Below, one piece after another: positions 50,642 to 57,557 of a DNA stretch of 64,000 bases. Position 1 is the stretch's first letter. Every line of letters starts with the position of its first letter. The stretch comes from Planctomycetota bacterium. Lineage in GTDB: Bacteria; Planctomycetota; PLA2; JAEUHO01. The position numbers were made by a program, and so were the translations under genes. Below the pieces are notes generated by a model. The model did not search any database and was not told where the DNA came from. It saw only the letters and a list, made by a program, of their open reading frames with translations. The DNA lies in contig CBDCWP010000024.1 of the NCBI GenBank assembly GCA_965223505.1, positions 64,001 through 128,000 on the forward strand, in the 5' to 3' direction.

Positions 50642-53600
50642 CTAGCTGCAACCACTCGTCGCGCCACAGGTGTCGCACTTGAGGCAGGAGCCGTTGCGCG
50701 TCATCGTGAACGAACCACACTCACCGCACGCGTCGCCGGTGTAGCCCTGCAGGCGCGCCGTCTCCGCCATGGAGAGTTGCCCACTGCGCACCCGGACCTC
50801 GCGCGTCTCGGTCACGCGCGCTTGCACCTCGAGCTTGGGAGAAAGGCCGATCCCGCCCTTGCCCTCCGCACCGCCGCTCCCGGCGCCGTTCCCGCCGCCG
50901 TTCGTTCCCAGGCCGACGACCCGCGGTCGCAGCGCCTCGTCGTCGAACACGCCCTTGCCTCCGGAACCGTTCCCGTTTCCGTTTCCGTTCGCGAGGCCCT
51001 TCGTCTCCTCGACCACCTCTTCGTCCTCGTACTCCGGCTCATCGCGCCGAACGGCGTCGGGCTGCAGATCTTCCTGTGTGACCTGGGCCAGGTCCTGGCG
51101 GTCCAGGTAGGTGATGGCGAGCTCGCGGAACACGTAGTCGATGATCGACGTGCTCATCTTGATGCGATCGTTGCCGGCGACCACACCGTTGGGCTCGAAG
51201 CGCGTGAAGACGAACGCGTCGACGAATTCCTCGAGCGGAACCCCGTGCTGCAAGCCGAGCGAGATCGCGATGGAGAAGCAGTTCATCAAGCTCCGGAAGG
51301 CCGCGCCCTCCTTGTGCATGTCGATGAAGATCTCTCCGAGCTGGCAGTCGCGCTCCGTGTTCGGGTACTCGCCCGTGCGCAGATACACCTTGTGGCCACC
51401 GACGATCGCCTTCTGCGTGTACCCGCCTCGACGCTGCGGCAGCCGGCGGCGCTTCGCGAGGTACCGAACGACCTTCACGACCCGTTCGGCAGGGCTGTCG
51501 GCATCCAACGGAAGCAAGCCCTCGGCCTCGGTCGCCGCCGCTTCCAAGGCGTCGGGCGCGACATCGTCATCGGCGTCGGACAACGTGGCATCGAGCATCT
51601 CCTCGATCTCGTCGGTCATGGCGCTGAGCGGTTGGCTGAGCTTGCTGCCGTCACGGTAGAGCGCGAGCGCCTTGAGCATCAGCCGCCAGGACGACCAGTA
51701 GGCCTCCTTGACGTCCTCTACGTTGACCTCGTGCGGCATGTTGATCGTCTTGCTGATCGCGCCCGAGATGAACGGCTGCGCGGCCGCCATCATCCGGATG
51801 TGCCCCATGTAGTGGATCGTGCGCGTACCGGTGCGCCCGCACTTGTTGGCGCAGTCGAAAACCGGCAGGTGCTCGTCGCGCAGATGCGGCGCGCCTTCGA
51901 TCGTCATGGTGCCGCAGATGTAGTCGTTCGCCTCACGCACCTGCTCCGCGCTGAAGCCGAGGTGCCGCAGGAGATCGAACGACTCCTGGTTCAGAACGTG
52001 CTCGGGGATGTTCAGGTCGTCCACGAGGCACTCGTCGCCGAGCGTCCAGCGATTGAGCACGAACGAGATGTCGAACGCGGACGGCAGCTGCGCTTCGATC
52101 TTCTCGATCATCTCGGACGTGAATCCCTTGGTGCGCAGGGTGACGGCATTGATGTGCGGACTCTCCTTCAAGGAGCCGCTGCCCTTGATGTAGCGCACGA
52201 TGTCCTCGATCTCGTCCTGCGCGTATCCGAGCTTCTTCAAGGCGGGCGGGACGGACGCGTTGATGATGCGGAAGTAGCCGCCGCCAGCGAGCTTCTTGAA
52301 CTTGACGAGCGCGAAGTCCGGCTCGATCCCGGTCGTGTCGCAGTCCATCACGAGCCCGATCGTGCCGGTCGGCGCGAGGACCGTAGACTGCGCATTCCGG
52401 TACCCGTGCGCCTCTCCGAGCTTCACGGCGCGATCCCAGACCTCGCGCGCCGCCTCGACCAGGTACGAGGGGCAGTCGTCGGCCGCGATCCCCTGCGGCG
52501 TGATCGTCAGTCCTTCGTACTCCTTCGCCGGCGCGTTGTAGGCCGCGCGCCGGTGGTTGCGCATGACGCGCAGCATCGACTTGCGATTGCGGCGGTAGCG
52601 CGGGAAGGGACCGTGCTCGGCGGCGAGGTCCGCCGACGTGGCGTAGGACTCGCCCGTCAGCATCGACGTCAGCGCGCCGGCGTAGGCGCGGCCCTCGTCG
52701 GAGTCGTACGGAATCCCGAGACGCATCAGCAGCGACCCCAGGTTGGCGTAGCCGAGGCCCAACGTGCGAAAGTCGTACGAGAGCTTCGCGATCTGCCGGC
52801 TCGGGAACTGCGCCATCAAGACGGAGATCTCGAGCACGATCGTCCACAGCCGCACTGTGTGCAGGTAGTCCTCGACCTGGAACGTGCCCGTTTCTTCGTC
52901 CAGGAACTTCACCAGATTGAGACTGGCGAGGTTGCACGCCGTGTCGTCGAGGAACATGTACTCGGAACACGGATTGGACGCGTTGATGCGGCCGTCGGCC
53001 GGACAGGTGTGCCACTCGTTGATCGTCGTGTCGAACTGCACGCCCGGGTCGGCGCACGCCCACGCGCTGTAGGAGATCTTCTCCCAGAGGTCGCCGGCGC
53101 GGACCTGCTTGGCGACCTCTCCGTCCGTGCGGCGGATGAGCTTCCAGCTCCGGCCGTCCTCGACCGCGTCCATGAACCCGTTCGACAAGCGCAGCGAATT
53201 GTTGGAGTTCTGCCCCGAGACGGTCAGGTACGACTCGCTGTCCCAGTCGGTGCTGTAGGTCGGCACCTCCATGCTCGTGAAGCCCTGGGACGCCAACGCG
53301 ATCGCTCGCATCGCGTAGTTCGTCGGAATGAGGCTGCGGCGCGCGTTGCGCATCGCCTTGCGCAGCTCGAGGTTCTTGACGATGTCGAAGCGCGTCTCCT
53401 GCTCCGGCCAGCCGTGGCAGGCTTGCATGATCTCGTTCAGGCAACGCTCGAGGAGGCGCGACCCCGCGACGAGCGCGGCGACCTTCTGCTCTTCGAGCAC
53501 TTTCCAATCGATGAACTCTTCGACGTCCGGGTGATCGACGTCGAGGCAGACCATCTTGGCCGCCCGCCGGGTCGTCCCGCCGGACTTGATCGCGCCGGCC

Positions 53601-54343
53601 GCCCGGTCGCCGATCTTGAGGAACGACATCAAGCCCGACGACTTTCCGCCGCCCGAGAGCGGCTCGCCCTCGCCTCGAATCGCGCTGAAGTTCGAACCCG
53701 TCCCGGAGCCGTACTTGAACAGGCGCGCCTCGCGCACCCAGAGATCCATGATGCCGGTCTCGCCGACCAGGTCGTCGTCGACCTTCTGGATGAAGCAGGC
53801 GTGAGGCTGCGGACGCTCGTACGCCGACCGGCTCTTGTTCAGTCGTCCCGTCTTCGGATCGACGAAGTGATGGCCCTGGGGCGGTCCGTCGATGCCGTAC
53901 GCGAAGTGCAAGCCCGTGTTGAACCACTGGGGGCTGTTGGGCGCCGTACGCTGATCCGCAAGCGTCCGACACAGTTCGTCGTAGAACGCCTGCGCGTCGT
54001 CGTCGGTGTCGAAGTACCCGTGCTGCTTGCCCCAATGGGTCCAGCAACCCGCCAGTCGGTGAAACACCTGGCGCGCATCCGTCTCACCGCCCAGCACCGG
54101 GTTTCCGTCGTCATCCAGGACGGGACGGCCGTCGGCATCGACCTGGGGCACGCCGGCGCGGCGGAAGTACTTCTGCGCCAGCACGTCCGTCGCCACCGAC
54201 GACCAGCCCGCGGGGACGCGTACGTCGTCGAGATGGAAGACGACGGTGCCGTCGGGGTTCCGAATCTCCGAGGTTCGTGAAACCCACTCGAGGCCCTCGT
54301 ACGGATCCTGCCCAGCCACCGTGAAACGACGAGAAACCTTCAT
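50642..54343 (-). CDS. nrdJ: Vitamin B12-dependent (class II) ribonucleotide reductase
   Basis: [48 protein letters not shown]-terminal Cys-rich zinc ribbon. Confidence 0.97.
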
Positions 54344-54540
54344 GAACGCCCTCCCTGCCCCGATCGACGTCACGTCGCCCGGCGCTGCCTACGCTTGTCA
54401 TCACCCGCTGTCTCGGTGCGCCGCCCGAGCACTCGGATCGCACACCCCGGACTCACGTCCACCCGAACTTCGTTCGCCCGATCTAACGCCGTCCGCGTGC
54501 CGCACCCGGTCCTTCCATCCACCCGGCCGTCACACGACCG

Positions 54541-54633
54541 CCCTCCTCGAGGCGGCCCTCCTCGAGGGCCCTATCGAGGCGGCCCGACGAGACAGCTCCC
54601 TCCGGGGGAGCCCCCTCCGACGGCCGCCCCTCC
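54541..54633. repeat. 15-nt-period degenerate repeats carrying CCCTCC (GGAGGG on the nrdJ strand)
   Basis: CCCTCC at 54541, 54556, 54598, 54613 and 54628. Confidence 0.65.
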
Positions 54634-54843
54634 GATGGAGCATCGCGGACGGAACGGCGGACACGAACCGGACCGGCGCTTGCCCATCGACAGGCACCGG
54701 ACCGACAACGAACGACCACGGTGACGGTCCCGAGCCATCCGAGAAGCCGTGCCCTGCCCTGGCGCCGCCTTCCGGACGTTCCCTGGACGGCCTCGGACCG
54801 CCTTGGAACCACGTGACCGCCCACGCACGGTCGACACTGTGAA

Positions 54844-54890
54844 CCACAACGGATTGTGGTGTCTCAGAGCCGAACCACGACATGTCGTAT
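54844..54890. promoter_or_regulatory. Tandem NrdR-box-like palindromes, 31 bp apart
   Basis: CCACAACGGATTGTGG (54844-54859) and CCACGACATGTCGTAT (54875-54890) versus consensus acaCwAtATaTwGtgt; upstream of nrdJ. Confidence 0.75.
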
Positions 54891-55140
54891 CACAGGCCGA
54901 TCGCCAACGCACGAACCAACTTCGGCCGTTCGGGGCCGCCACCTGGATCGAAACCCAAGACACTTCCCGTCTTGGGAGCGAGAAATTACGCCTGGCGGGG
55001 GACAGTGCCCCGGGCCCCATTCCTTGGGCCGGCGCCAACGCTCGCGTGCACCGGGTTGGGGTCTTCGGTGCCCAGCCCGCGGGCCTGCATCGGGTGGACG
55101 TGCCATCGCCGCGGACGCGCAGCCGCCCGCCGGATGCCCC

Positions 55141-55248
55141 GAAATTAGGAACGGGCCGGACCCTTACGGGTCCGGCCCATCGCCGCGAAGTGAACCAGAG
55201 GGAGGGTTGGGCAGGAGGAGGGAGTTGGTTCGGCCTCCGCGTTGTCCC
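55141..55248 (-). ncRNA. Candidate sRNA with anti-Shine-Dalgarno loop and terminator hairpin
   Basis: ECF-like promoter CAAC-N16-CGTATA (55279-55254); hairpin with loop ACUCCCUCCUCCUGCCCAACCCUCCCUC; 11-bp stem with GUAA loop (55153-55178) followed by a U-rich tail. Confidence 0.6.
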
Positions 55249-55294
55249 TGTTGTATACGCCCGCACCCCCGCTGTGTTGGCACTGACAACGGGA

Positions 55295-55303
55295 TTGTCC
55301 ACA
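55295..55303 (+). promoter_or_regulatory. Single DnaA-box-like site TTGTCCACA
   Basis: Matches the high-GC DnaA box TT(A/G)TCCACA; sits in an AT-richer patch. Confidence 0.4.
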
Positions 55304-55711
55304 AATCTTTACAACTACGCCGGATAGAGCGGGAATCCGCGTTCTCGCCGGCGTCGCAGCCGTGCCCCGTCCGGGCGCCCGTTTCGCTCGGCGCAACGCG
55401 GACACGACTGCGCCCCACGCCGCCACCTCGGCTTCGATCGACACGGGCCGCAGGCGACACCACCGCGCGCCCGATCGTGCACGCGGATTCGAACGCGGGA
55501 TGCCGACAACGCTTCAACGTCGCCAAAACCCGGGCTGGTTTTGCTTCTCGGCGCACTTGATTCCAGTGGTAGCTTTTCGCCGGAATCACGCCAGAAGGGT
55601 GATTCCTTTCGCAATTCAGGGTTGTGCGCATCAATGCAATCGGCGTTTGGTGTTGCACGACACGGTTCAGTTTCTTCACCACAATTCGTAGGTAGGAAGC
55701 AGGAGAGTTTC

Positions 55712-55939
55712 ATGGCTGCCAGGAAGAAGAAGAAGAAGCGCGCAACGCGCGCGAAGAAGGCCCCGGCTCTTAACCTCGTGGTCGGTTCGAAGGTCAAGGA
55801 AGCGATCAAGGGTTCGGGCTACCGTTGCTCGGGCGACCTGGTCGACGCCCTGAACTCGCACGTCCACCAGATCCTGAACGGTGCGGTCACGCGCTGCCAG
55901 GCGAACAACCGCGGTACGGTTCGCCCGCAGGACCTGTAG
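55712..55939 (+). CDS. Bacterial histone-fold protein with Lys/Arg-rich N-terminal tail (75 aa)
   Basis: LVVGSKVKEAIK...CSGDLVDALN...R...NNRGTVRPQDL matches the prokaryotic histone pattern (SKVK; TVR-x-x-D); AGGAG RBS; own terminator. Confidence 0.88.
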   Translation: MAARKKKKKRATRAKKAPALNLVVGSKVKEAIKGSGYRCSGDLVDALNSHVHQILNGAVTRCQANNRGTVRPQDL

Positions 55940-55983
55940 GCGACGAGCTCCGGAGAACGCTCCGGACGATTTCGCAGTCGTTG

Positions 55984-56021
55984 GGGCGTCACGTTTCGTA
56001 CGTGGCGCCCTTTCTTTCTTT
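55984..56021 (+). terminator. Rho-independent terminator after the histone gene
   Basis: GGGCGTCACGT / ACGTGGCGCCC stem followed by TTTCTTTCTTT. Confidence 0.85.
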
Positions 56022-56035
56022 CAGCGAGTGAGAGC

Positions 56036-56557
56036 ATGTCGGCCGACGCGACGCAGATTCTTACGATCCTTCAAGAGAAGGCGACCGACACGAGCGATCC
56101 CGACGTGCTCGGCGACGCGATGATCGAAGCGCTGAGCAAGGCGTTCGACAAGGCCAGCTGGGTCGGGATCTATTGGTTGCGCGGCACGGAGCTCGTTCTG
56201 GGCCCCTATCGCGGACCGGAAACGGACCACACGACGATCGCCGTCGGTGTCGGCGTGTGCGGAACCGCGATCGAGAAGGACGAGGATCAGATCATCCCGG
56301 ACGTCCGCGAGCTGGAGAACTACCTCGCGTGCTCTGCAACGGTGCGAAGCGAGATCGTCGTCCTGATTCGTTCGCGCGGCGAAGTGATCGGTCAGATCGA
56401 CATGGACGCCGAGGAGGTCGCGGCGTTCGACGAGACGGATCACGCGGTGCTGCGCGCCGTTGCCGACAGCTTCGGAGGGCTCGTGGAGCCGAAGCCGCTC
56501 GACGCCGAGACGCACGAGCGGCAGACCGGCAAGGCGAACGGCGACGACCCCTCGTAG
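56036..56557 (+). CDS. GAF domain protein, free methionine-R-sulfoxide reductase (MsrC)-like
   Basis: WVGIY, L.LGPY.G, GVGVCG.A, Y.ACS...SEIVV, GQID.D. Confidence 0.85.
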   Translation: MSADATQILTILQEKATDTSDPDVLGDAMIEALSKAFDKASWVGIYWLRGTELVLGPYRGPETDHTTIAVGVGVCGTAIEKDEDQIIPDVRELENYLACSATVRSEIVVLIRSRGEVIGQIDMDAEEVAAFDETDHAVLRAVADSFGGLVEPKPLDAETHERQTGKANGDDPS

Positions 56558-56588
56558 CGCGACGTGCGCGCTCGGCGCGGTCCGGACC

Positions 56589-57557
56589 CTAGCGGGGCGC
56601 CGAGGCCGTCGAAGCGAGGACGTCGCGAATCGCGTCGTCGAGGTCGTGGCGCGGCGCGAAGTCGATGAGTTCGTGCAGCACCGCGAGGTTGGGCTTGCGA
56701 CTGACCGGATCCCGAAAGCCCGGACCGTAGACGCGCTCGAACGGAATGTGCTCGATGCCGGCATTCCGGCCTGCGGCCGCGGCGACACGCCGGGCCAGCT
56801 CGAGGATGGTGATCTCGTCCTCGCTGCCGATGTTGACGATGCGGCCCTCCGCCGCCGAACAGCCCGCGAGGCCGCGCAACGCCGCCACGGCGTCACGCAC
56901 ATGCAGGAAGCAGCGCGTCTGCGTACCGTCGCCGTAGACCGGCAGCGGACGACCGGCACGCGCGGCGGCGGCAAACCGCGCCAGGACCATGCCGTATCGG
57001 TCGGACTGCCCGGGTCCGACGACGTTGAAGAATCGCACGACGGTCACGGGCAGCAGGCGCGAGCGATGGAGCGCGAGCGCGTAGGCTTCGCCCGCGACCT
57101 TCGAAAGCGCGTAGACGTCGCGACGCCCGGCGGGATCGAGCGCGATCGGATCGGTCTCGGACATGAACGCGGGCTTCTGATGACGAACCGGATCCCCGCA
57201 GCCGTACACCTCACTCGAGGACGCGATGATCACGCGCGCTCCGTGCCGCACGCACGCGTCCAACACCGCGGCGGTGCCGTCGACGTTGCGCGTCCAGGTC
57301 TCGATCGGCTCCTCCGCGACCATGCGCGGACCGACGGCAGCCGCGAGATGAATGACGAGATCGCAGCCCGCGACGGCGGTGGACACGACTTCGCGATCGC
57401 GCACGTCGGCCCGGATGAGCTCCGCTTCACGGGGCACGCGATGGGCGAACCCGGTCGAGCAGTCGTCGAGGACACGGATCCGATGCGCGTCGGAGCGTAG
57501 CTCCGAGACAAGATGGCTTCCGATGAAGCCCGCGCCGCCGGTGACGAGAACACGCAT
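56589..57557 (-). CDS. NAD-dependent epimerase/dehydratase (nucleotide-sugar)
   Basis: TGGAGFIGSH, HLAA.VG, SSSEVYG, YALSK, RFFNVVGP, GDGTQTRCF. Confidence 0.93.
   Translation of the reverse strand: MRVLVTGGAGFIGSHLVSELRSDAHRIRVLDDCSTGFAHRVPREAELIRADVRDREVVSTAVAGCDLVIHLAAAVGPRMVAEEPIETWTRNVDGTAAVLDACVRHGARVIIASSSEVYGCGDPVRHQKPAFMSETDPIALDPAGRRDVYALSKVAGEAYALALHRSRLLPVTVVRFFNVVGPGQSDRYGMVLARFAAAARAGRPLPVYGDGTQTRCFLHVRDAVAALRGLAGCSAAEGRIVNIGSEDEITILELARRVAAAAGRNAGIEHIPFERVYGPGFRDPVSRKPNLAVLHELIDFAPRHDLDDAIRDVLASTASAPR

What the first reader, a model, noticed from the sequence alone, without database searches (positions are those of the whole stretch)
55712..55939. Bacterial histone with a eukaryote-like basic N-terminal tail, transcribed divergently from ribonucleotide reductase
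Seen: a 75-aa ORF with RBS and its own terminator, buried inside a longer spurious ORF in the track. Residues ~20-75 read LVVGSKVKEAIK-x-SGDLVDALN-x-R-x-NNRGTVRPQDL. The first 16 residues (MAARKKKKKRATRAKK) contain 10 Lys/Arg. Established: the core pattern matches bacterial histones such as Bdellovibrio Bd0055 and the Leptospira histone; the SGD/TVRPxD features resemble the 'face-to-face' type. Inference: the tail could add DNA bridging or be an acetylation/phosphorylation substrate in a lineage known for condensed nucleoids. Sharing an intergenic region with nrdJ, NrdR boxes and a DnaA-type box suggests chromatin supply might be coupled to dNTP supply and replication.
Basis: partly seen in the sequence, partly recalled or inferred. 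Interest (0 to 1): 0.8.

Follow-up and report, generated by a model that had tools for sequence, protein, structure and literature searches.

The report
Planctomycete face-to-face histone with basic tail
This is a real 75-residue bacterial histone gene of the tetramer-forming "face-to-face" type with a conserved lysine/arginine-rich N-terminal tail, a kind of protein already described in surveys of Planctomycetota, and its link to the neighbouring ribonucleotide reductase gene is only loose.

Summary
The ORF at 55712-55939(+) is real: an AGGAG ribosome-binding site 6 nt before the ATG, and a hairpin plus T-run terminator. The best solved match is HLp of Leptospira perolatii, a DNA-wrapping tetrameric face-to-face (FtF) histone (E 4e-11; Foldseek rmsd 0.6 Å). 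The FtF tetramer residues R61/N65/R67 and the R67-T69-D74 motif are present. A four-copy model uses that interface (score 0.87, best control 0.00).

The tail is translated and conserved. All 120 listed close homologues carry a basic N-terminal tail. 35 of 59 sampled open with MAARKKK and 54 of 59 have net tail charge of +8 or more.

This is not new in kind. Schwab et al. 2024 report FtF histones in Planctomycetota and note that bacterial FtF tails are common and mostly positive.

The nrdJ coupling idea is not supported. nrdJ starts about 1.37 kb away. NrdR-like boxes sit on the nrdJ side, 822-868 bp from the histone ATG. The DnaA-like box is at chance level. nrdJ is adjacent in 11 of 21 same-family loci and 0 of 9 sister-family loci.

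Verdict: a new member of a known kind.

The parts
55712..55939 (+). Histone gene, 75 codons plus TAG. Predicted helices: alpha1 residues 25-34, alpha2 43-64, a one-turn alpha3 at 72-74.
   Evidence: sequence; HLp E 4e-11; AF2 model, mean pLDDT 77; Foldseek: HLp rmsd 0.6 Å, target TM 0.94-0.95
55712..55774 (+). Coding region of the basic N-terminal tail (residues 1-21, 10 K/R, no D/E, net +10). Predicted disordered.
   Evidence: pLDDT 53-59 for residues 1-20; all 120 listed homologues have a basic tail; tail statistics.
55701..55705 (+). Shine-Dalgarno AGGAG, 6 nt upstream of the ATG.
   Evidence: GGAG-type motifs precede the tail-bearing ATG in nearly all of the 30 related loci printed.
55567..55575 (+). 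TGGTAGCTT, a conserved extended -10-like element about 145 nt upstream of the ATG. Putative histone promoter (inferred).
   Evidence: a TG[G/A]TA[G/C]nTT element is aligned in 8 of the 13 related loci examined (plus a looser TGCTACATT in L044), 71-145 nt before the ATG. Not detected by the sigma-70 scan.
55582..55606 (+). Hairpin GGAATCAC...GTGATTCC just downstream of the putative promoter. Possible 5'-UTR stem-loop (inferred).
   Evidence: single-sequence folds show a hairpin at the same place in several relatives. Covariation was not formally tested.
55983..56021 (+). Intrinsic-terminator-like hairpin (12 pairs, 8 GC) plus TTCTTTCTTT, lying between the histone and the GAF gene.
   Evidence: GC hairpin plus T-rich tail seen downstream of the stop in most of the 13 relatives printed.
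50642..54373 (-). nrdJ, a class II B12-dependent ribonucleotide reductase (context only). Probable ATG at 54343.
   Evidence: (NF005736, 1929 bits, profile from residue 11)
54844..54890 (.). Tandem NrdR-box-like palindromes (CCACAACGGATTGTGG and CCACGACATGTCGTAT) with starts 31 bp apart. They belong to nrdJ, not to the histone.
   Evidence: the only such pair in the 64 kb window; 200 shuffles gave a mean of 0.025 pairs, with 5 of 200 having one or more; similar pairs on the nrdJ side in 4 of 11 syntenic loci; an NrdR gene is present in the genome. The consensus was recalled from memory.
55295..55303 (+). TTGTCCACA, a DnaA-box-like 9-mer with one mismatch. Chance level.
   Evidence: 2 matches in the window versus 1.77 expected.
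56036..56557 (+). Free-standing GAF-domain protein, the best-conserved neighbour of the histone.
   Evidence: GAF_2, 1e-11; downstream of the histone in 16 of 21 same-family loci and 0 of 9 sister-family loci.

Best explanation
The gene encodes an alpha3-truncated histone of the face-to-face (FtF) class.

Shown by computation: two chains form the usual histone handshake dimer. Two dimers then join through the end of alpha2, loop 2 and the short alpha3 (R61, N65, R67, R71, Q73, D74) into a closed tetramer like HLp of Leptospira and HTkC of Thermococcus.

Inferred by homology to HLp: the tetramer binds DNA non-specifically and wraps roughly 60 bp. Contacts would run through the alpha1 N-terminus (G25-S26-K27, K29, K33) and the L1/L2 loops (G41, T69).

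The 21-residue tail is translated, disordered and conserved in this order of Planctomycetota. It carries +10 charge against about +3 for the core.

Inferred for the tail: residues 20-24 of the two chains of a dimer touch in the model, so the two tails leave side by side at the alpha1-alpha1 DNA site. Four tails per tetramer would add about 40 positive charges. These most likely raise DNA affinity, neutralise the wrapped DNA, and may reach a second duplex to condense the nucleoid.

The gene looks like its own transcription unit, with a conserved promoter-like element, an SD and a terminator. It coexists with two HU/IHF-family genes.
For: Sequence:
- phmmer against PDB gave HLp (9qt0) at E 4e-11, ungapped over residues 14-74. 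HBb and HTkC scored only 5e-3.
- HLp residues named in the paper map as follows. Tetramer residues R49, N53, R55 correspond to R61, N65, R67. The RD clamp R55-D62 corresponds to R67-D74.
- DNA contacts S14, K15, K17, K21, G29, T57 correspond to S26, K27, K29, K33, G41, T69.
- R61, N65, R67 and T69 are at least 90% conserved and D74 is invariant in 139 sequences.

Fold:
- AF2 mean pLDDT 77, with helices at 25-34, 43-64 and 72-74.
- Foldseek's top 9 hits are HLp, HTkC and HBb.

Oligomer:
- The four-copy model scored 0.87 against a best control of 0.00.
- The three runs agreed in at least 95% of contacts, and partner pLDDT was at least 82.
- The contact set to a second dimer was residues 60-61, 64-65, 67, 71, 73-74.
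- Calibration: the mark was reached by 20 of 30 proteins solved as pairs and 1 of 23 solved as single chains. This calibration holds only roughly here, because four copies and my own alignment were used.

Tail:
- All 120 listed homologues carry a basic N-terminal tail.
- In the 59-sequence sample, 35 open with MAARKKK, 58 of 59 have net tail charge of +4 or more, and 54 of 59 have +8 or more.
- An SD precedes the tail ATG in nearly all of 30 related genomic loci.

Persistence:
- Found in 34 of 35 other genomes of the same order (23/24 and 11/11 by family).
- A profile matched in 134 of 301 sampled Planctomycetota genomes.

Literature:
- HLp is a tetramer that wraps about 60 bp (abstract and sections read).
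- FtF histones occur in Planctomycetota, and bacterial FtF tails are common and mostly positive (passages read).
Against: - No experiment exists on this or any planctomycete histone.
- No RNA or protein data were available for this organism.
- The tetramer model may score high from memory of the solved HLp and HTkC tetramers (caveat stated).
- Some HLp interface and contact residues differ: S52 is A64 here, T61 is Q73, F63 is L75, T27 is C39, T56 is G68.
- No Pfam or NCBIfam model reaches its cut-off, so family assignment rests on pairwise, profile and fold evidence.
- The role of the tail is inference only. HLp wraps DNA with a much shorter, unresolved N-terminus.
- The genome also has two HU/IHF-family genes, so the histone need not be the main nucleoid protein.
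Confidence: 0.8

Rival explanations
1. It is a dimer-type bacterial histone like HBb/Bd0055 that bends or coats DNA as dimers. The tetramer is a modelling artefact.
For: HBb chains are also found by sequence (E 5e-3) and by fold (ranks 4-9). The tetramer score can come from memory of solved tetramers.
Against: The protein is much closer to HLp than to HBb (E 4e-11 vs 5e-3; 45% vs 36% identity in Foldseek). Schwab 2024 states that bacterial dimers lack the R48/N52 positions, whereas the equivalents R61 and N65 are present and at least 90% conserved here. The model uses exactly that interface.
Confidence: 0.08
2. Histone supply is coupled to dNTP supply and replication through a regulatory region shared with nrdJ, via NrdR and/or DnaA.
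For: The genes are divergent neighbours. A tandem NrdR-like box pair is unique in the window and an NrdR gene exists in the genome. nrdJ is next to the histone in 11 of 21 same-family loci.
Against: The start codons are about 1.37 kb apart here and about 1.0-3.0 kb apart in relatives.

The boxes lie about 500 bp from the nrdJ ATG, but 822-868 bp from the histone ATG and more than 670 bp from its conserved promoter-like element. No box of 10/16 or better lies within 400 bp upstream of the histone.

In relatives the boxes are always on the nrdJ side, 916-2896 bp from the histone. The DnaA-like 9-mer is at chance.

Synteny is absent in 0 of 9 sister-family loci and in 10 of 21 same-family loci; two of those 10 (L049, L040) had short upstream flanks and are uninformative. 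In L044 the histone is inverted. A separate conserved non-coding element lies between the two genes.
Confidence: 0.07
3. Translation starts downstream (for example at GTG codon 23), so the tail is not part of the protein.
For: A GTG lies in frame at codon 23. For HLp, a longer database variant was judged wrong by its authors on SD position.
Against: Here the SD sits before the tail ATG and none precedes the GTG. The tail's composition, and the MAARKKK opening in most close homologues, are conserved at the protein level across the 120 listed homologues and the related loci, which non-coding DNA would not show.
Confidence: 0.02
4. The histone fold is used for something other than chromosome packaging, for example a specific transcription factor or an RNA or ribosome-associated basic protein.
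For: There is no expression or localisation data. Two HU/IHF genes could cover nucleoid packaging. Histone folds serve as transcription factors in eukaryotes (general knowledge).
Against: DNA-backbone contact residues of HLp are conserved. It is single-copy and persistent across an order. No extra domain is present. The closest characterised relatives are abundant non-specific DNA binders.
Confidence: 0.04

Closest known systems
HLp, the FtF histone of Leptospira perolatii (PDB 9QT0-9QT2; Hu et al., Nat Commun 2025, PMC12701072)
   Same: About 45% identical over the fold. Same truncated alpha3, RD clamp, tetramer residues (R49/N53/R55 correspond to R61/N65/R67) and most DNA-contact residues. 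Same predicted closed tetramer.
   Different: HLp has about 10 pre-core residues with little charge, and its first 6-7 residues are unresolved. This protein has 21 pre-core residues with net +10. Leptospira is reported to lack HU, whereas this genome has two HU/IHF-family genes. The reported HLp neighbourhood (SMC, methionine aminopeptidase, a DUF350 protein) is different.
Face-to-face (FtF) histones of prokaryotes (Schwab et al., Nat Commun 2024, PMC11390915), including HTkC (PDB 9F2C)
   Same: Shares the defining fold, the RxTxxxxD motif, the R/N tetramer residues and the predicted torus tetramer. The paper lists Planctomycetota among the bacterial phyla with FtF histones and says bacterial FtF tails are common and mostly positive.
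   Different: The paper says there is no tail sequence conserved across bacteria. Within this order the tail opening MAARKKK is conserved (35 of 59 sampled). [quoted passage not shown]
HBb / Bd0055 of Bdellovibrio bacteriovorus (bacterial dimer histone; PDB 8CMP, 8FVX, 9EZZ)
   Same: Alpha3-truncated singlet histone fold with RD clamp and alpha1 lysines.
   Different: HBb is a dimer that bends or coats DNA and lacks the R/N tetramer residues. It is a weaker match (E 5e-3).
Eukaryotic core histone tails and Asgard archaeal histone tails
   Same: N-terminal, disordered and lysine/arginine-rich, attached to a histone fold.
   Different: No sequence relation was detected. Eukaryotic histones match only at fold level (Foldseek E of 0.07 or worse). 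The tail here is a low-complexity K/R/A run. No modification enzymes are adjacent and no modification data exist.
Lysine-rich tails of bacterial HU-family proteins (for example Streptomyces HupS, regulated by the CobB1 deacetylase; PMC11229371, search listing and abstract only)
   Same: A lysine-rich low-complexity extension on a small bacterial nucleoid protein. It is a precedent for acetylation control of such a tail.
   Different: Different fold (HU, not histone), and the tail is C-terminal.

Membership tests
Face-to-face (FtF) alpha3 histones (Schwab 2024) | Histone fold with alpha3 truncated to 3-4 residues and a shortened alpha2 | tested here: met
   AF2 model: helices at 25-34, 43-64 and 72-74. 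Foldseek to HLp: rmsd 0.6 Å, target TM 0.94-0.95.
Face-to-face (FtF) alpha3 histones (Schwab 2024) | RxTxxxxD motif (RD clamp) in loop 2 and alpha3 | tested here: met
   R67-G-T69-V-R-P-Q-D74. R67 and T69 are at least 90% conserved and D74 is invariant in 139 sequences.
Face-to-face (FtF) alpha3 histones (Schwab 2024) | Conserved dimer-dimer residues (HMM R48 and N52; HLp R49, N53, R55) | tested here: met
   R61, N65 and R67 by ungapped alignment to HLp. All are at least 90% conserved.
Face-to-face (FtF) alpha3 histones (Schwab 2024) | Predicted homotetramer (torus) through both faces of the dimer | tested here: met
   Four-copy model scored 0.87 against a best control of 0.00. Runs agreed in at least 95% of contacts; pLDDT was at least 82. 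The second interface was residues 60-61, 64-65, 67, 71, 73-74. This is a prediction only and may reflect memory of the solved HLp and HTkC tetramers.
Face-to-face (FtF) alpha3 histones (Schwab 2024) | Non-specific DNA binding and wrapping of about 50-60 bp | not testable with these tools
   Only conservation of HLp DNA-contact residues could be checked (S26, K27, K29, K33, G41, T69).
Bacterial dimer histones (HBb type) | Lack of the R48/N52 tetramer residues; no confident oligomer above the dimer | tested here: not met
   R61 and N65 are present and conserved. A tetramer is predicted confidently.
Pfam histone families (CBFD_NFYB_HMF PF00808, DUF1931 PF09123) | Score above the gathering threshold | tested here: not met
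   The only Pfam hit for the 75-aa protein at E<=1 was DUF5805, 13.4 bits against a cut-off of 28.5. No NCBIfam hit. The Pfam models are insensitive to this clade.
Histones with eukaryote-like N-terminal tails | Long, disordered, basic N-terminal extension | tested here: met
   21 residues, 10 K/R, no D/E. pLDDT 53-59, no secondary structure.
Histones with eukaryote-like N-terminal tails | Tail is a substrate of regulated post-translational modification | not testable with these tools
   No proteomic data. No acetyltransferase or deacetylase among the immediate neighbours, which are nrdJ, a GAF protein and an epimerase.
NrdR regulon | Tandem NrdR boxes overlapping or next to the gene's promoter | tested here: not met
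   The only tandem pair (54844-54890) is 822-868 bp upstream of the histone ATG. No box of 10/16 or better lies in 55312-55711. The consensus used was recalled from memory.

The most novel reading that the evidence does not exclude
The order-wide conserved, +10 charged MAARKKKK tail turns the FtF tetramer into a bridging and condensing histone. Its lysines would be reversibly acetylated, giving a bacterial, independently evolved counterpart of tail-based chromatin regulation in a phylum noted for condensed nucleoids.
Probability: 0.12. Interest if true: 0.75.

Novelty: new member of a known kind. Interest (0 to 1): 0.3.

Why it matters
Bacterial histones have been characterised only in Bdellovibrio and Leptospira. 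Planctomycete histones are known only from sequence surveys. This gene gives a clean, well-delimited example, with start codon, tail, promoter-like element and terminator all supported by comparison.

The clade has an unusually strongly charged tail with a conserved opening. That makes it a good candidate for asking what basic tails do on bacterial FtF histones: affinity, bridging, or regulation by acetylation.

It does not change what is known about the class. The proposed link between chromatin supply and dNTP supply is not supported.

Tried and rejected
- Pfam and NCBIfam gave no hit above cut-off for the 75-aa protein.
- Rfam found nothing at E<=1 in 53500-57000, so no riboswitch or known RNA lies in the spacer. 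The only hit in 55080-55330 was a chance-level one (E 6.7).
- The sigma-70 consensus scan found 0 promoters in 54300-56200.
- ARAGORN found no tRNA or tmRNA in 54300-55800.
- The search for related loci with the 139-row alignment returned an error (no conserved 7-10 column stretch). I repeated it with the single protein, which returned 12 loci. The closer ones are titled as Planctomycetota MAGs; others as Myxococcota, Actinomycetota or Bdellovibrionota MAGs; the weakest is an Agrobacterium record.
- Earlier findings of this scan: nothing by place or by sequence.
- Supplementary figures of Schwab 2024 (Fig. 13 on tails) were not readable as text.
- Spacer ORFs: translations of 13 ORFs between nrdJ and the histone gave no conserved protein. 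Hits were either the antisense of the nrdJ 5' end or short stretches over the conserved non-coding blocks. I therefore rejected a hidden gene in the spacer.
- I considered that the neighbouring C/U-rich candidate sRNA targets the histone SD. Complementarity (GGCAGGAG with CUCCUGCC) holds in some loci but not in L040, L041, L045 or L046, so I do not claim it.

Full report
**Observation**

Ten of the first 16 residues are Lys/Arg. AGGAG (55701-55705) lies 6 nt before the ATG. A 12-pair GC-rich hairpin at 55983-56011, followed by TTCTTTCTTT, lies between the stop codon and the next gene.

The frame is nested in a 132-aa TTG ORF from 55541. That upstream extension is not conserved, because the open frame around the orthologue varies from 82 to 526 aa among relatives.

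**What the protein is**

No Pfam or NCBIfam model reaches its cut-off. phmmer against all PDB chains gives 9QT0 at E 4e-11, ungapped over residues 14-74. The Bdellovibrio histone HBb (8CMP, 8FVX) and the archaeal HTkC (9F2C) score E 5e-3.

9QT0 is HLp of Leptospira perolatii. It is a face-to-face (FtF) histone that forms stable tetramers and wraps about 60 bp of DNA (preprint and journal version: abstract and sections on bioinformatics, structure and DNA complexes read).

Mapping that paper's residues through the ungapped alignment gives the following:
- Tetramer network: HLp R49, N53, R55 correspond to R61, N65, R67 here.
- RD clamp: HLp R55-D62 corresponds to R67-D74.
- DNA contacts: HLp S14, K15, K17, K21, G29, T57 correspond to S26, K27, K29, K33, G41, T69.
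- Differences: S52 is A64 here, T61 is Q73, F63 is L75, T27 is C39, and T56 is G68.

In a 139-sequence alignment, R61, N65, R67 and T69 are at least 90% conserved and D74 is invariant.

An AlphaFold2 model has mean pLDDT 77. It shows helices at 25-34, 43-64 and a one-turn 72-74, with no structure in residues 1-24 (pLDDT 53-59). Foldseek ranks HLp first (rmsd 0.6 Å, target TM 0.94-0.95), then HTkC, then HBb. Eukaryotic and nucleosomal archaeal histones follow only at E of 0.07 or worse.

A four-copy complex model gave these results:
- Score 0.87 against a best control of 0.00.
- The three runs agreed in at least 95% of contacts, and pLDDT was at least 82.
- Calibration: 20 of 30 proteins solved as pairs and 1 of 23 solved as single chains reach the mark. 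This holds only roughly here, because four copies and my own alignment were used.
- Besides the handshake dimer, the scored chain touches a chain of the other dimer through residues 60-61, 64-65, 67, 71 and 73-74. This is the HLp tetramer interface.
- Because HLp and HTkC tetramers are solved, the pass shows likeness. It is not proof that this protein forms a tetramer.

Schwab et al. 2024 state that bacterial "dimer" histones lack the two tetramer positions. Their presence here argues for the FtF class.

**The tail**

All 120 close homologues listed by the word-indexed search carry a basic N-terminal tail ahead of the LVVGSKVKE core. Five of these are evidently mis-called or truncated entries, and I left them out of later alignments.

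In a sample of 59 close homologues:
- 35 open with MAARKKK.
- Median tail length is 22 residues (range 11-30).
- Median K+R count is 10 and median D+E count is 0.
- Net tail charge is +4 or more in 58 of 59, and +8 or more in 54 of 59.
- The core carries about +3.

In 30 genomic loci from related genomes, the tail-bearing ATG is preceded by a GGAG-type motif in nearly all. In L060 my script picked an internal Met. In L052 the motif is weak and distant. No SD precedes the in-frame GTG at codon 23. Translation from the tail ATG is therefore well supported.

Among 80 more distant single-domain cluster representatives, net tail charge is +4 or more in 41 and +8 or more in 12. Basic tails are thus common in this wider histone group. 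The window's tail sits at the highly charged end but is not unique.

**Distribution**

The own genome has 5.15 Mb in 44 contigs and is 92% complete. It has one copy of this gene plus a second, different histone-fold gene.

The gene is found in 34 of 35 other genomes of the same order: 23 of 24 in the same family and 11 of 11 in the sister family. It was found in 0 of 5 genomes from other families of the phylum with this single query. The single miss within the order was a genome that is 57% complete.

A profile of the wider group matches in 134 of 301 sampled Planctomycetota genomes and 113 of 238 genera. Record titles of the closer public relatives name Planctomycetota MAGs.

**What is already in print**

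- Schwab et al. 2024 (passages read): FtF histones in bacteria are found "predominantly" in Spirochaetota, Planctomycetota, Bdellovibrionota and Myxococcota. [quoted passage not shown]
- Hocher et al. 2023 (passages read): histone genes persist in Planctomycetota, and most bacterial singlets lack long tails.
- I found no paper that characterises a planctomycete histone or tests a bacterial histone tail.
- Supplementary Fig. 13 of Schwab 2024 could not be read.

The finding is therefore a well-supported new member of a known kind. It is not a new kind.

**The nrdJ idea**

The divergent neighbour is a class II B12-dependent reductase. Its probable ATG is at 54343, 1.37 kb from the histone ATG.

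A tandem pair of NrdR-box-like palindromes lies at 54844-54859 and 54875-54890, with starts 31 bp apart.
- It is the only such pair in the 64 kb window. 200 shuffles gave a mean of 0.025 pairs, and 5 of 200 had one or more.
- The genome encodes NrdR.
- The pair lies about 500 bp from nrdJ, but 822-868 bp from the histone ATG.
- No box of 10/16 or better lies in the 400 bp before the histone.
- In 4 of 11 other syntenic loci a comparable pair was found, always on the nrdJ side, 916-2896 bp from the histone.
- The NrdR consensus I used was recalled from memory.

The DnaA-like TTGTCCACA (55295-55303) is at chance level: 2 matches against 1.77 expected.

The histone has its own conserved upstream element. 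This is TGGTAGCTT at 55567-55575, with a close match (TG[G/A]TA[G/C]nTT) in 8 of the 13 relatives examined plus a looser TGCTACATT in L044, 71-145 nt before the ATG. A hairpin follows it, and the gene has its own terminator. I infer that the element is a promoter; this is not shown.

Synteny was checked in 30 of the 34 relatives with a match. The four not fetched were G010, G023, G031 and G032.
- nrdJ lies within the fetched flank in 11 of 21 same-family loci and 0 of 9 sister-family loci.
- It is divergent in 10 of the 11, at about 1.0-3.0 kb. In L044 the histone is inverted.
- Of the 10 same-family loci without nrdJ, L049 (1.4 kb upstream available) and possibly L040 (3.2 kb) are uninformative.
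- The downstream GAF gene is a better-conserved neighbour: 16 of 21 same-family loci and 0 of 9 sister-family loci.

The adjacency to nrdJ is a clade-limited gene order. There is no sign of shared control.

**Mechanism proposed**

Shown by computation: an FtF-type fold, conserved tetramer and DNA-contact residues, a predicted tetramer, and a disordered, conserved, basic tail.

Inferred by homology to HLp: non-specific binding and wrapping of about 60 bp around a closed tetramer.

Inferred from geometry: residues 20-24 of the two chains of a dimer touch in the model. The two tails therefore leave together at the alpha1-alpha1 DNA site. Four tails would add about 40 positive charges per tetramer. 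They would strengthen binding, neutralise the wrapped DNA and possibly reach a second duplex.

Whether lysines in the tail are modified is open. A precedent for acetylation control of a lysine-rich tail on a bacterial nucleoid protein is Streptomyces HupS (listing and abstract only).

The genome also has two HU/IHF-family genes. This differs from Leptospira, which is reported to lack HU.

**Expression**

No RNA run was listed for this stretch, so nothing can be said about expression.

Noticed in passing
window 55135-55262, minus strand; also L040:970-1097, L045:8230-8357, L046:8380-8507, L041:6426-6553, L044:5809-5940, L038:8475-8594, L037:4040-4155, L052:6030-6149: A conserved, single-copy block of about 110 nt lies in the nrdJ-histone spacer. 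It is 77-93% identical across genera, more than its flanks, and its orientation relative to the neighbours flips between genomes. On the window's minus strand it folds as an 11-pair stem enclosing an almost invariant C/U-rich loop (CUCCCUCCUCCUGCCCAACCCUCCC, anti-SD-like). A 12-pair GC hairpin with a T-run follows. 12 of 23 predicted pairs keep pairing through changes on both sides. No Rfam family or tRNA matches. This is a candidate new small RNA.
   Followed up: partly
L002 1276-1698(+) (own genome, contig C21 about 405751-406173): A second histone-fold gene in the same genome: 140 aa with two tandem alpha3-type histone folds behind a signal-peptide-like hydrophobic N-terminus. Many cluster representatives share this design and the motif KPKEIVVVGSKVKEVIREAGLRSDGELVQ. 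Some carry an RRM-like KLFVGNLPY domain in front. This suggests a family of exported or membrane-anchored doublet histone-fold proteins.
   Followed up: partly
window 56036-56557(+): A free-standing GAF-domain protein (GAF_2, 1e-11; no NCBIfam family) is the most conserved neighbour of the histone. It lies downstream in 16 of 21 same-family loci, separated from the histone by the terminator. Function unknown.
   Followed up: partly
window 54844-54890: Tandem NrdR-box-like palindromes sit about 500 bp upstream of the nrdJ ATG. This implies a long nrdJ leader or a distant promoter. No riboswitch was found there.
   Followed up: partly
window 55712-55939, residues C39 and C62: There are two cysteines. 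C62 is kept in most close homologues, and C39 alternates with Met. HLp has Thr at both positions; C39 replaces the DNA-contacting T27. A redox role was not examined.
   Followed up: no
proteins P0122-P0129, P0135, P0136, P0141 and others: Many of the closest 50%-cluster representatives are tandem doublets of this same histone fold, about 120-130 aa and without a signal peptide. These are covalently linked pseudodimers of FtF-like histones.
   Followed up: no
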